From assembly GCF_009914755.1 (NCBI RefSeq), contig NC_060925.1: a DNA stretch of 64,000 nucleotides; one strand, given 5' to 3'. Below are positions 13,444-62,601 of the stretch, piece after piece. This DNA comes from the human T2T-CHM13v2.0 reference genome, Homo sapiens. The notes under the pieces are model-generated. The model did no database searches. It was not told the origin of the DNA and saw nothing but the letters and a program-made list of their open reading frames with translations. How positions within the stretch are numbered: the first letter of the stretch is position 1; every line of letters begins with the position of its first letter. Made by a program: the position numbers and the translations under genes.

Positions 13444-14238
<795 letters not shown>

Positions 14239-14253
14239 AAAGTAGATAAGTAT

Positions 14254-15105
14254 TGATAAGGTTTGGATTTGTGTGCCAGCCTAAATCTCATGTGAAATTG
14301 GAGGAGGGGCCTGGTGGGAGATGATTGGATCATGGGGGCAGATTTTACCCTTGGTGTTCTCCTGATAGTGAGACTATCACTATCAGTGATTGATAGTGAG
14401 ACTATCACTATCAGTGATTGATAGTGAGACTATCACTATCAGTGATTGATAGTGAGACTATCACTATCAGTGATTGATAGTGAGACTATCACTATCAGTG
14501 ATTGATAGTGAGACTATCACTATCATCAGTGATTGATAGTGAGACTATCACTATCATCAGTGATTGATAGTGAGACTATCACTATCAGTGATTGATAGTG
14601 AGACTATCACTATCAGTGATTGATAGTGAGACTATCACTATCAGTGATTGATAGTGAGACTATCACTATCAGTGATTGATAGTGAGACTATCACTATCAG
14701 TGATTGATAGTGAGACTATCACTATCAGTGATTGATAGTGAGACTATCACTATCAGTGATTGATAGTGAGACTATCACTATCAGTGATTGATAGTGAGAC
14801 TATCACTATCAGTGATAATGAGTGAGTTCTCAGAAGATCTAATTGTTTAAAAGTGTGTGGCACTTTCCCCTGCTCGCTCTCTCTCCTGCCACCATGTGAA
14901 AAAGGTGTTTGCTTCCCCTTCGTCTTCCATCATGATTGTAAGTTTTCTGAGGCCTCCTAGTCATGCTTCTTGTGAGTCAGAACTGTGAGTCAATTAAACC
15001 TCTGCAATTAAACCTGCAGAACTGTGAGTCAATTAAGCCTCTTTTCTTCATAAATTACTCAGTCTCAGGTAGTTCTTTATAACAGTGTGAGAACAAACTA
15101 ATACA
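14254..15105 (+). mobile_element. Solo MaLR MST LTR expanded by an internal minisatellite
   Basis: TGATAAGGTTTGG...ACTAATACA termini; 5-bp TSD AGTAT (14249-53 / 15106-10). Confidence 0.85.
14363..14816. repeat. Minisatellite, 16 units of TGATAGTGAGACTATCACTATCAGTGAT (14 x 28 bp + 2 x 31 bp)
   Basis: Units counted directly; units 6 and 7 carry an extra TCA; otherwise identical. Confidence 0.98.
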
Positions 15106-15570
15106 AGTATATAAGTCAGGACAAAGATGGATGGACCAAAATGATAAATAATAATTCTCATGCAGTGGTGCATGCTTGTGGTCCCTACTTGGGAGGCTGA
15201 GGCTGGAGGATCCCTTGAGGCCAGGAGTTTGAGGCTGTAGCATGCTATGATAGTGTCTGTGATAGATGCTACATAAACATTCTTATTTAATAGCCATATG
15301 CTTATTTTAATGTGTATCAGGAAAAATAAAACAGCATATCACAAATGTGATTTTCTGGATATGACTTATTAGGATGAGGCTAAAGCAGGTAGAGCTGTAG
15401 TAATCTGTACGACGCATTAATTACAGAAGAAGACTCAGACCTGCCCATGATTGTTATACACCTGCAGGGACTGAATTTTCTCCTGTAACTGTTCATAAGA
15501 ATGTATAACTTGGATGATGCTATTCACTAGTATGTTTTTAAATTTTTAATATTTATTTATTTATTTTTAA

Positions 15571-15705
<135 letters not shown>

Positions 15706-16266
15706 TGAACTGAATTTTCAAGCTCATTCCTGCATTATTTTCAGCACTAAATTGAAATATGACTTTGAGAAGCTGACAATTGTTGAGTACTGAAGTATTA
15801 AAATGATTGCTTGAAAACACAATCTAGTCACTGTTGTATACACCAGCAAAAAACAAAAACAGAAAATACCTGAGAATGCACTTGAAGTTTGGAGAGAAGT
15901 GTTTAAATGGTACTTTTCAAATTGCCAATTGAATTGTAAAAACCACTGAAGACCATTGGCTTCTATGCAGATGGGTCCTCACTCTTTCATTTGAATAGAT
16001 GGCACCCTAAATCTTTCTGGAGAAAATCCTCATGTTTTAGAATTGTTTGTATGAATAGATTTGCAAACCAGACTATCTTATTGATATCTTTGTTAATTTG
16101 GACAACTTACAATCACTATTAGAATGCACACTTACATTATATGTGAAGGCCAAGTGAATGAGAAGATCTGCAAAACAGAATGATGGGTGTGCACCTTGAT
16201 CATGTGAACTCTATTCTTTTTTGTTCCCCTTTTTTTTAAGAGACAAGGTCTTGCTCTGTCACCTAG

Positions 16267-16356
<90 letters not shown>

Positions 16357-17144
16357 TAAGACTACAGGTATGTGCCACCATGCCCAGCTAGCAGAGCTCT
16401 ATTCTTTATCTGAAAAATTCTCTAAAAGTATTTAGGACATTATGAAAGACTTCATAAGATTTTTTCTTATTGATTGGCAAGAGTGAATCAATAAAACCTT
16501 ATTTACCTTATCATCAGCTATTGTTTATAGCAATTGATACCAATTTTCCATCCAAACAATAATACTAATAAGTAATAATAATGTGTCACTGTTAACAATA
16601 ACTATTATCATTGCATTTCTGAAATGGCCTTTTTTACTTACAGTCACTGAGGCTCTAGGTCAATTTTGAAGCAGACAGAACAAGCGGGAAGGGGAAGTTA
16701 ATGGGATAAAATCTTTCTCTCCCCTTCCACTCATAGTTGAATTTGCCTAAGTGAAATCGTACATCAGTAGGCCAGTCAGTAATTCCCTGCAGCTATCTCA
16801 TATTCTAGAATTGACTAGGAAGAATCCTCTATTTACGTTCCTTTCCTTGAAGTTTTTCTTGTCTTTAATGTGTTCAGTATTTTATAAATTATTTACAAAT
16901 TATCACATATAATATACTCCTCCTAAAAATAGGAAGTTATAGAAAAGCAAAAGGAAGAAAAAAATCATAATTCCATAATCCAAAGAAAACTACTATTGAT
17001 AGCTTGTTGTATTTTTTTCTACATATAGTTTTTGTTTGGCTTATAAAGTTGAGCTTCAATGCAGTGGTCTTTCAAATGTTTTCCTTGAGTCTTCTTAAAA
17101 GAAGATTTTCAAACTACGTACTCCCTTGCATATTTTAGAATTAA

Positions 17145-21665: not shown

Positions 21666-21839
21666 GAAACAAGTGTATAATTAATAACAATGCTGGTTGT
21701 AAATTAAAACTAAGCGTCATATTTTTGGTGTCAAAATGTTTGACATTTTTAAGAAAACATGTATAAGTGTTCTGCCTCTTGGATGAGACCATTTTAAATT
21801 AAGCTGTAAAAAAAAAGTACCGACAAAACAGTTCACTTT

Positions 21840-22030
21840 CAGTAATCTGGATTTCCCCAAATAGTGACACGAGAGCCAGTCATTTCGAATTGGACAGTTT
21901 GAGTTCCTCTTCAAGAGTCTGCAATGTAGGTCAGGGCTCTGCTGACATTTCCATTGACCTCAGAAGTGAAAATCTAAAGTGAGTGCTGACAGGCAGGCAG
22001 TGAGGAAAGAAGACATGACACAGCCAACAA
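21840..22030 (+). promoter_or_regulatory. IL23R proximal promoter with consensus RORE AATGTAGGTCA (21923-21933) and near-NF-kB GGATTTCCCC (21849-21858)
   Basis: Repeat-free sequence directly 5' of exon 1; exact match to WAWNTRGGTCA. Confidence 0.6.
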
Positions 22031-61415: not shown

Positions 61416-61471
<56 letters not shown>

Positions 61472-61574
61472 TTTCTTTCTTTCTTTCTCTTTTTTTTTCT
61501 TTCTTTCTTTCTTGCTCTTTCTGTCTCTTCCTTTCTTTCTCTTTTCCTTCCTCCTTTCCCTTCCTTTCTTTCTT

Positions 61575-61578
<4 letters not shown>
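61416..61578. repeat. (TTTC)n microsatellite derived from an Alu tail
   Basis: Seen directly. Confidence 0.9.
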
Positions 61579-62455: not shown

Positions 62456-62601
62456 TGATACCTTCTGCAGCCGTCATTTCCAGGGCTGAGACTATAAATG
62501 CTACAGTGCCCAAGACCATAATTTATTGGGATAGTCAAACAACAATTGAAAAGGTTTCCTGTGAAATGAGATACAAGGCTACAACAAACCAAACTTGGAA
62601 T
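62456..62601 (+). CDS. IL23R: IL23R exon 6 (VIPSAAVISRAETINATVPKTIIYWDSQTTIEKVSCEMRYKATTNQTWN); gene continues beyond window
   Basis: T21-ctAG acceptor, 146 nt, donor AAT|GTAAGC; cumulative CDS 798 nt = 266 codons with no stop. Confidence 0.96.

What the first reader, a model, noticed from the sequence alone, without database searches (positions are those of the whole stretch)
14363..14816. Self-complementary 28-bp minisatellite forming a ~48-site GATA array ~7.2 kb upstream of IL23R
Seen: 16 near-perfect units. Each has TGATAG once on + and twice on - (CTATCA), i.e. 3 WGATAR sites per unit. Each unit folds (TGATAGTGA-gacta-TCACTATCA, or GATAGT-gag-ACTATC), and adjacent units pair across the junction (TCACTATCA-gtgat-TGATAGTGA), so the array can form alternative hairpins or cruciforms. 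It grew from the MST LTR's own TGATAGTGAG word: the LTR resumes at TGATAATGAGTGAGTTCTC. Inference: a template-switch inversion created the seed and slippage amplified it. Unit identity implies recent expansion and probable length polymorphism. It could be a copy-number-tunable GATA3 platform for a Th17/ILC3 gene, invisible to SNP arrays at an immune-disease GWAS locus.
Basis: partly seen in the sequence, partly recalled or inferred. Interest (0 to 1): 0.85.

Follow-up and report, generated by a model that had tools for sequence, protein, structure and literature searches.

The report
Young hairpin-forming minisatellite upstream of IL23R
A perfectly repeated 28-base unit sits inside an old retrotransposon remnant about 7 kb before the main IL23R start site; it is real and recently expanded, its many GATA words come from copying one word, and no function is shown.

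Summary
Window 14363-14816 holds 16 head-to-tail units. Fourteen are the same 28-mer and two adjacent ones carry an extra ATC. There are 48 WGATAR words, 16 on the + strand and 32 on the - strand.

The array lies in a solo LTR (14254-15105) with a 5-bp target-site duplication, AGTAT. The LTR belongs to a dispersed family with thousands of copies. In 54 paralogous copies the two flanks abut, and none carries the array. The array's junction words occur nowhere else in this genome.

All 28 bases of the unit can be traced to the LTR's own CTGATAGTGAG. The steps are a fold-back inverted copy, two microduplications, and slippage between flanking copies of the word.

The functional idea, a copy-number-tunable GATA3 platform for IL23R, has no support here. 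All 48 words descend from one ancestral word. The dimer spacings published for GATA3 are absent from the 28-bp unit. No functional element is annotated at the site. I found no paper or VNTR table listing it.

Length polymorphism and ape orthologues could not be tested. My best reading is a neutral, young, retrotransposon-derived minisatellite.

The parts
14363..14816 (+). Minisatellite: 16 units of 28 bp. Fourteen are identical and two are 31 bp. It holds 48 WGATAR words, has 35.7% G+C and no CpG.
14254..15105 (.). Solo LTR that hosts the array. It has TG...CA ends, is 852 bp long (398 bp without the array), and belongs to a dispersed family. The names MaLR/THE1/MST are recalled, not tested.
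   Evidence: (7490 and 1879 first-look candidates)
14249..14253 (.). Left target-site duplication, AGTAT.
15106..15110 (.). Right target-site duplication, AGTAT.
14363..14372 (+). First copy of the LTR's own word TGATAGTGAG, at the left edge of the array.
   Evidence: 30 of 54 paralogue junctions hold this exact word
14813..14822 (+). The word where the LTR resumes (TGATAATGAG). It is the right-hand direct repeat bounding the array. Its first 4 bases are counted in the last unit. This junction lacks the extra TGAT found at the 15 internal junctions.
14503..14564 (+). Two adjacent variant units of 31 bp (+ATC). They mark a duplication that happened after the variant arose.
13777..14240 (.). Neighbouring second dispersed repeat. 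With the Alu at 13447-13729 it shows the setting is a patch of transposon remnants.

Best explanation
This is a young minisatellite, private to this locus, that arose by mutation inside one old solo LTR. It most probably has no selected function.

Shown:
- The host is a solo LTR with an intact 5-bp target-site duplication.
- Its paralogues have the word TGATAGTGAG once, followed directly by the right flank.
- The array and its junction words occur nowhere else in this genome.

Inferred sequence of events:
1. A nascent strand ending in the word folded back on itself. This is a short template switch. It copied the word in reverse, including the C that precedes it in the left flank. If one of the two tandem ACTATC copies is set aside, the left-flank C, the word and the next 8 bases form a perfect 8-bp palindrome with a 3-nt loop.
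2. A 6-bp microduplication (ACTATC) occurred. Synthesis also re-started at the beginning of the word, leaving two direct copies of the word around the new bases.
3. A 4-bp duplication (TGAT) produced the 28-bp period. The right-most junction still lacks it.
4. Replication slippage or unequal exchange between the direct repeats amplified the unit to 16 copies. The competing hairpins probably helped. The two adjacent +ATC units record one such late duplication.

The three GATA words per unit are the ancestral LTR word plus its inverted, duplicated copy. The 48-site array is therefore a by-product of how the unit was made. The array is likely to vary in length among people, but that is an expectation, not a result.
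For: - Anatomy of the array and its perfect units.
- Solo LTR with AGTAT target-site duplication, 398 bp without the array.
- Dispersed family: 7490 and 1879 first-look candidates. The 39 other scored copies are 73-79% (right flank) and 83-91% (left flank) identical.
- In 58 paralogue loci, 56 flank pairs were found and 54 of these are adjacent (52 loci). Fifty-three have 4-11 bp between the matches and one has 27 bp. Thirty of 54 hold the exact word. None of 54 holds the inverted word. None of the 58 loci holds the word/inverted-copy junction.
- Uniqueness in the genome: the 84-bp query hits only the array (7 of 7 matches). The 17-mer junction gives 16 of 16 hits here with reversed-pattern controls at 0. 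The 21-mer unit junction gives 13 of 13 hits here.
- A 10-nt inverted match to the adjacent CTGATAGTGA, including the flank C. Chance is 96 of 200,000 random 18-mers.
- Hairpins and many competing registers.
- Youth: 0 substitutions in 454 bp. At a recalled rate of 0.5e-9 per bp per year, the probability of 0 substitutions is 0.10 after 10 My and 0.011 after 20 My.
- The setting is transposon remnants on both sides.
- Paralogue L067 has an independent 20-bp tandem duplication starting at the same word.
- Known classes fit. 23% of human minisatellites/satellites are reported as TE-derived, and one initiation model expects flanking direct repeats and an incomplete terminal unit (PMC3389668, abstract and passages). 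Short template switches are reported to create hairpins and inverted copies in human DNA (PMC5453318, abstract).
Against: - Absence of function cannot be shown from sequence.
- No population, ape, chromatin or binding data were available here.
- The order of the four inferred steps is not determined. Other orders give the same unit.
- Perfect unit identity could also reflect very recent expansion under selection, or ongoing conversion.
- GATA cores recur at centre-to-centre distances of 11, 6 and 11 bp. Palindromic pairs therefore lie about one helical turn apart, an arrangement that might favour cooperative binding (read from the sequence).
- The family name of the LTR is recalled only.
Confidence: 0.72

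Rival explanations
1. The array is a homotypic cluster of GATA-factor sites (GATA3 in T cells and innate lymphoid cells, or GATA1/2 elsewhere). On this reading it acts as a copy-number-dependent enhancer, silencer or factor sink for IL23R or a neighbouring gene.
For: - 48 WGATAR words in 454 bp, against 2.6 per kb elsewhere in the window.
- Cores are phased at about one helical turn (read from the sequence).
- The position is 7179 bp upstream of the main first exon and inside longer IL23R models (supplied gene table).
- GATA3 is reported to use WGATAR and pairs of GAT triplets (PMC7434886, passages).
Against: - All 48 words are copies of one LTR word, so their number needs no selection.
- All 48 are TGATAG. 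None is AGATAA, TGATAA or AGATAG.
- The spacings reported as enriched at GATA3 peaks are absent from the 28-bp unit. GAT N3 ATC occurs 0 times, GAT N4 ATC 0 times and GAT N6 GAT 0 times. ATC N6 ATC occurs only twice, both created by the +ATC variant units (PMC7434886, passages).
- The supplied RefSeq table lists one functional element in the window (21747-21936) and none at the array.
- Passages in PMC5334638 name TBX21 and ROR-gamma, not GATA3, at the mouse Il12rb2/Il23r locus.
- No paper linking GATA factors to this site was found (listings only, passages).
Confidence: 0.1
2. The array matters through DNA structure rather than protein words. Hairpins or cruciforms would stall replication or transcription. 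That would make the site unstable, or make it a local barrier within the long IL23R transcription unit.
For: - At least four nested or alternative hairpins per unit on both strands, and a strongly non-random fold of the whole array (z = -14.6) with many registers.
- The array lies within longer IL23R transcript models (supplied gene table).
Against: - The stems are only 6-9 bp with 3-5-nt loops, worth -2 to -7 kcal/mol per unit as single strands.
- From general knowledge, such short arms extrude from duplex DNA only under strong negative supercoiling.
- The folds are single-strand predictions, not evidence of cruciforms in chromatin.
- Nothing here shows instability.
Confidence: 0.06
3. The array binds another factor. 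For example, the word TGATTGAT, created at 15 unit junctions, resembles a PBX/HOX-type site (a recalled motif).
For: TGATTGAT occurs 15 times in the array and 3 times in the rest of the window.
Against: - Any 28-bp unit repeated 16 times multiplies whatever short words it contains.
- The word was created by the 4-bp TGAT duplication.
- The motif assignment is recalled and was not tested. No binding data are available.
Confidence: 0.03
4. The array, or its copy number, is an assembly artefact.
For: None found. The possibility is listed only because perfect repeats can be mis-assembled.
Against: - At 454 bp the array is far shorter than long reads.
- The two +ATC units give internal landmarks.
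- The flanks join cleanly to both halves of one LTR with matching target-site duplications.
Confidence: 0.02

Closest known systems
Transposon-derived minisatellites (Ahmed and Liang 2012, PMC3389668; abstract and passages read)
   Same: A tandem array of a 10-100-bp unit lying inside an annotated-type transposon copy. It is initiated from the element's own sequence and bounded by direct repeats with an incomplete last unit. It expanded by local duplication.
   Different: The unit is not a plain segment of the element. 18 of its 28 bases are an inverted, microduplicated copy of the adjacent word. At 35.7% G+C it would have been excluded by that study's 40% G+C filter (passage).
Short template-switch mutations that create hairpins (Loytynoja and Goldman 2017, PMC5453318, abstract read; related titles PMC8794818 and PMC10710096 seen in the listing only)
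   Same: A short inverted copy of adjacent sequence gives a perfect stem without stepwise substitutions.
   Different: Here the product then became the unit of a 16-copy tandem array. The switch itself is inferred from one present-day sequence, not from an outgroup comparison.
Microsatellite or VNTR transcription-factor platforms whose activity depends on length, for example GGAA repeats bound by EWS-FLI1, the INS VNTR and the MAOA uVNTR (all recalled, not checked here)
   Same: Many copies of one factor's core word in a length-variable array near a gene.
   Different: No binding, no length variation and no expression effect is shown for this array.
Hairpin- or cruciform-forming AT-rich repeats, for example the FRA16B/FRA10B AT-rich minisatellites and palindromic AT-rich repeats at translocation breakpoints (recalled)
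   Same: Self-complementary, AT-rich, tandem or palindromic DNA that is prone to secondary structure.
   Different: The arms here are 6-9 bp rather than tens to hundreds of bp. The array is 454 bp. No fragility is known.

Membership tests
Minisatellite / VNTR | Head-to-tail copies of a unit of about 10-100 bp | tested here: met
   Period 28, 16.0 copies, 98% matches. Unit list.
Minisatellite / VNTR | Copy number varies among individuals | not testable with these tools
   Only one human genome is held. The held supplement text has no IL23R or C1orf141 term in Bakhtiari 2021, Lu 2021, Eslami Rasekh 2021 or Course 2021 (one file not searched). There is no chr1 row at my recalled hg38/hg19 positions. 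The Lu file was cut when stored.
Transposon-derived minisatellite | Lies in, and shares sequence with, a transposon copy | tested here: met
   It lies inside a solo LTR with a target-site duplication. The unit starts with the LTR's own word, found in 30 of 54 paralogue junctions.
Transposon-derived minisatellite | Bounded by short direct repeats, with an incomplete terminal unit | tested here: met
   TGATAGTGAG at 14363 and TGATAATGAG at 14813. The last junction lacks the TGAT present at the 15 internal junctions.
Solo LTR of the MaLR (THE1/MST) kind | TG...CA ends and a 5-bp target-site duplication | tested here: met
   It begins TGATAAGG, ends AATACA, and has AGTAT on both sides.
Solo LTR of the MaLR (THE1/MST) kind | Thousands of dispersed copies of similar length | tested here: met
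   7490 and 1879 first-look candidates. The 39 scored non-self copies of each flank are spread over many chromosomes.
Solo LTR of the MaLR (THE1/MST) kind | Match to the curated family model (Dfam/Repbase) | not testable with these tools
No repeat library is on hand.
GATA-factor site cluster acting as a regulatory element | High density of WGATAR | tested here: met
   48 in 454 bp against 2.6 per kb elsewhere.
GATA-factor site cluster acting as a regulatory element | Paired GAT triplets at spacings reported as enriched at GATA3 peaks (GAT N3-4 ATC; GAT N6 GAT) | tested here: not met
   0, 0 and 0 in the array. ATC N6 ATC occurs only twice, in the two 31-bp units. The spacings come from PMC7434886 passages.
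GATA-factor site cluster acting as a regulatory element | Occupancy by a GATA factor, open chromatin, and an effect on a gene | not testable with these tools
   No ChIP, ATAC or expression data are available. The supplied RefSeq table lists no functional element at the array.
Structured RNA or microRNA gene | Reaches the curated score of an Rfam family | tested here: not met
   The best hit in the array is MIR2600 at 32.9 bits, against a gathering score of 98. All array hits are far below threshold.
Cruciform-forming palindromic AT-rich repeat | Long near-perfect inverted arms (tens to hundreds of bp) | tested here: not met
   The longest stems are 9-10 bp. The whole-array fold is a string of local hairpins.

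The most novel reading that the evidence does not exclude
The array is length-polymorphic in people. Through its 48 phased GATA words, or through its hairpins, it acts as a copy-number-dependent cis-regulator of IL23R in lymphoid cells. Given what is known of GATA3, it would more likely be a silencer or factor sink than an enhancer. It would contribute to immune-disease association signals at this locus that SNP-based fine-mapping has not explained.
Probability: 0.07. Interest if true: 0.75.

Novelty: new member of a known kind. Interest (0 to 1): 0.3.

Why it matters
If the array is only a neutral minisatellite, its value is modest. It is a clean, fully traceable example of how a short template switch plus microduplications can seed a tandem array inside an LTR. 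It is also a probable multi-allelic marker within the IL23R gene span.

One practical point follows. The junction 17-mer and 21-mer occur only here in this genome. Copy number, and any factor occupancy, could therefore be read from existing raw sequencing reads by counting these words, without alignment.

If the array proved to modulate IL23R, it would be a hidden structural variant at a major locus for inflammatory bowel disease, psoriasis and spondyloarthritis. Nothing found here points that way.

Tried and rejected
Literature searches:
- IL23R + VNTR: 51 papers, 15 listed.
- IL23R + tandem repeat + long-read: 2 papers.
- The 28-mer itself as a search term: 0 papers.
- IL23R + VNTR + eQTL: 4 papers. 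I read passages of one, PMC9842386, where the VNTR mention concerns the CEL gene.
- IL23R + GATA3 + enhancer + upstream: 87 papers, 20 listed.
- 'IL23R locus' + GATA: 7 papers.
- No title or abstract in these listings concerns this array.
- Passages read in PMC13447110, PMC9135711 and PMC5334638 do not mention it.

Supplementary tables:
- No IL23R or C1orf141 term in the held text of Bakhtiari 2021, Lu 2021, Eslami Rasekh 2021 or Course 2021.
- Searches by coordinate prefix used hg38/hg19 positions that I estimated from memory. They found no chr1 row.
- One part of Lu's table, read in full, covered only chr1 23-26.5 Mb.
- Limits: the Lu file was cut when stored, one Course file was not searched, and Sulovari 2019 is not held. 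These tables may still bear on polymorphism.

Other steps:
- The Rfam scan gave only sub-threshold microRNA-like hits in the array, which I take as artefacts of the hairpin repeat.
- A coding reading is rejected. The period is not a multiple of 3, and TGA and TAG occur in every unit.
- An assembly artefact is rejected, as explained under the rival explanations.

Full report
**What is there**

Window 14363-14816 is a tandem array with period 28 and 16.0 copies, 98% matches and score 854. It is the highest-scoring of the 6 tandem-repeat rows with score >=80 in the 64-kb window.

Cutting at each TGATAGTGAG gives 16 units. Fourteen of the 16 are the same 28-mer. Units 6 and 7 (14503 and 14534) are 31 bp because of an added ATC. 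There is not one substitution. A search allowing 3 mismatches finds the 28-mer 14 times, against 0 in 100 shuffles. The array is 35.7% G+C and has no CpG.

**GATA words**

WGATAR occurs 16 times on the + strand and 32 times on the - strand within the array. One more (TGATAA) lies in the word where the LTR resumes. The rest of the window has 2.6 per kb, and the next densest 454-bp stretch has 7. All 48 are TGATAG. None is AGATAA, TGATAA or AGATAG.

**Self-complementarity**

Folded as single-stranded DNA:
- The unit forms a 9-bp stem with a 5-nt loop at -7.1 kcal/mol (2 of 200 shuffles fold as well).
- The register across the unit junction gives an equivalent hairpin at -7.0 kcal/mol (0 of 200).
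- The minus strand gives -6.8 kcal/mol.
- The smaller GATAGT-GAG-ACTATC hairpin gives -2.1 kcal/mol.
- A further one, ATCACT-ATC-AGTGAT, gives -3.0 kcal/mol.

The whole array with 20-nt flanks folds to -124.9 kcal/mol, against -65.5 +/- 4.1 for 100 shuffles (z = -14.6). The minimum-energy structure has a frequency of about 0, and the centroid is largely open. That is what many competing registers would produce.

These are single-strand predictions. They do not show cruciforms in duplex chromatin.

**The host element**

The two flanks belong to a dispersed repeat family:
- The 289 bp to the right gave 7490 first-look candidates. Forty were scored, and the 39 non-self matches are 73-79% identical.
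- The 127 bp to the left gave 1879 candidates. Forty were scored, and the 39 non-self matches are 83-91% identical.

The element runs from 14254 (TGATAAGG...) to 15105 (...AATACA). It is flanked on both sides by AGTAT, so it is a solo LTR with an intact 5-bp target-site duplication. It is 852 bp long, or 398 bp without the array. The names MaLR, THE1 and MST are recalled and could not be tested, because no repeat library is available.

The surroundings are also transposon remnants:
- An Alu-type match at 13447-13729.
- Further Alu-type matches at 15575-15691 and 16238-16388.
- A second dispersed repeat at 13777-14240, with 1498 candidates.

**The array is private to this copy**

I compared the site in 58 paralogue loci fetched.
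- 56 left/right flank pairs were found.
- 54 of them (in 52 loci) are adjacent. Fifty-three have 4-11 bp between the two matches and one has 27 bp.
- The other two pairs join neighbouring, different copies.
- 30 of the 54 read exactly TGATAGTGAG at the site, and 34 of 54 keep a WGATAR there.
- 0 of 54 hold the inverted word ACTATCA.
- 0 of the 58 loci hold the word/inverted-copy junction.

Whole-genome searches agree:
- An 84-bp piece of the array matches only the array itself, 7 of 7 matches.
- The 17-mer at the word/inverted-copy junction occurs 16 times, all here, with 0 for the reversed-pattern control.
- The 21-mer across the unit junction occurs 13 times, all here.

The DNA search of this genome skips very common words. 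The two exact-pattern scans are therefore the stronger evidence.

**How the unit was made (inference from the sequence)**

The unit is the LTR's 10-nt word followed by 18 new bases. The reverse complement of those 18 bases contains CTGATAGTGA. That is a 10-nt match to the word together with the C before it in the left flank. Internal units have a T at that position, so the copy was templated at the original left edge. Only 96 of 200,000 random 18-mers of window composition match the 70-nt context that well.

Three features account for all the new bases:
- The new bases contain ACTATC twice in tandem. If one copy is set aside, the flank C, the word and the next 8 bases form a perfect 8-bp palindrome with a GAG loop. 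That is the product expected from a strand that folds back and copies itself.
- The 15 internal junctions carry TGAT twice in tandem.
- The last junction, where the LTR resumes with TGATAATGAG at 14813, carries TGAT once.

So 10 + 8 + 6 + 4 = 28, and every base of the unit derives from one 11-nt stretch of the LTR.

The resulting direct repeats of the word are a substrate for slippage or unequal exchange. The two adjacent +ATC units show that a unit was duplicated after it had mutated.

One paralogue (L067) has an independent 20-bp tandem duplication starting at the same word.

Both processes are described in print:
- Short template switches that create hairpins (PMC5453318, abstract).
- Transposon-derived minisatellites, reported as 23% of human minisatellites/satellites, with an initiation model that expects an incomplete terminal unit (PMC3389668, abstract and passages).

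**Age**

The flanks have diverged to a median of 85% (left) and 76% (right) identity from their paralogues, whereas the 454-bp array has no substitution. With a recalled rate of 0.5e-9 per bp per year, the chance of 0 substitutions is 0.32 after 5 My, 0.10 after 10 My and 0.011 after 20 My. This dates the last homogenisation, not necessarily the seed.

**Function**

Nothing I could run supports it, and several results weigh against it.
- The number of sites is explained by copying one word.
- The spacings reported as enriched at GATA3-bound sites are GAT N3-4 ATC and GAT N6 GAT (PMC7434886, passages). They occur 0, 0 and 0 times in the array. ATC N6 ATC occurs only twice, in the variant units. 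The array instead has ATC N3 GAT 16 times, GAT N9 ATC 16 times, ATC N3 ATC 16 times and GAT N1 GAT 15 times.
- The gene table supplied with the finding lists one RefSeq functional element in the window (21747-21936) and none here.
- Passages in PMC5334638 name TBX21 and ROR-gamma as the factors recruited at the mouse Il12rb2/Il23r locus. That is weak evidence, since this LTR is not expected in mouse.

In favour of the proposal:
- The words fit the WGATAR consensus.
- Their cores recur at 11, 6 and 11 bp.
- The array lies 7179 bp upstream of the main first exon.
- It lies 1511 bp upstream of an alternative exon and inside longer IL23R models (supplied table).

Any 28-bp unit repeated 16 times multiplies whatever words it holds. 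TGATTGAT, for example, appears at 15 junctions.

**Known or new**

Nine literature searches found no paper on this array. Six of them were aimed at this array or at the IL23R locus, and one used the unit itself as a search term.

The held supplements of four VNTR studies contain no IL23R or C1orf141 term, and no chr1 row at my estimated positions. Limits apply:
- One file was cut when stored.
- One file was not searched.
- One paper is not held.
- The positions were estimated from memory.

The array is part of the public reference and is presumably in generic tandem-repeat tracks, though I could not check that. As a kind of object it is ordinary. As an individual locus it appears undescribed.

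**Verdict**

- The mutational origin is supported.
- The regulatory interpretation is unsupported and untested.
- Best reading: a neutral, young, LTR-derived, hairpin-prone minisatellite (confidence 0.72).
- Length polymorphism is likely, by analogy with other pure multi-copy minisatellites, but it is not shown.

Noticed in passing
window 16238-16388 (exon 16327-16367): The alternative IL23R exon listed in the supplied gene table lies inside an antisense Alu-type sequence (SRP-type match on the minus strand, 58.3 bits). This looks like Alu exonisation.
   Followed up: no
window 13777-14240: A second dispersed repeat of about 465 bp lies directly upstream of the LTR (1498 first-look candidates, 75-79% identity). 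It contains a 32-bp repeat in two copies at 14036-14100.
   Followed up: partly
window about 14979-15040: The right part of the same LTR carries an internal duplication of roughly 35 bp around GAACTGTGAGTCAATTAA. Paralogues match 289 query bases with only about 250 of their own.
   Followed up: no
L067 (G000:C13:89394146-89397270), junction site: Another copy of the LTR family has an independent 20-bp tandem duplication that starts at the same TGATAGTGAG word. The site may be prone to slippage in general.
   Followed up: no
window 14363-14816: The 17-mer and 21-mer junction words occur only in this array in the whole genome (16 of 16 and 13 of 13 hits). Raw-read word counts could give copy number or occupancy without alignment.
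   Followed up: yes
window 61416-61575: An impure (TCTT)n microsatellite of about 39 copies with 80% matches. It lies about 0.9 kb upstream of the IL23R exon at 62456-62601.
   Followed up: no
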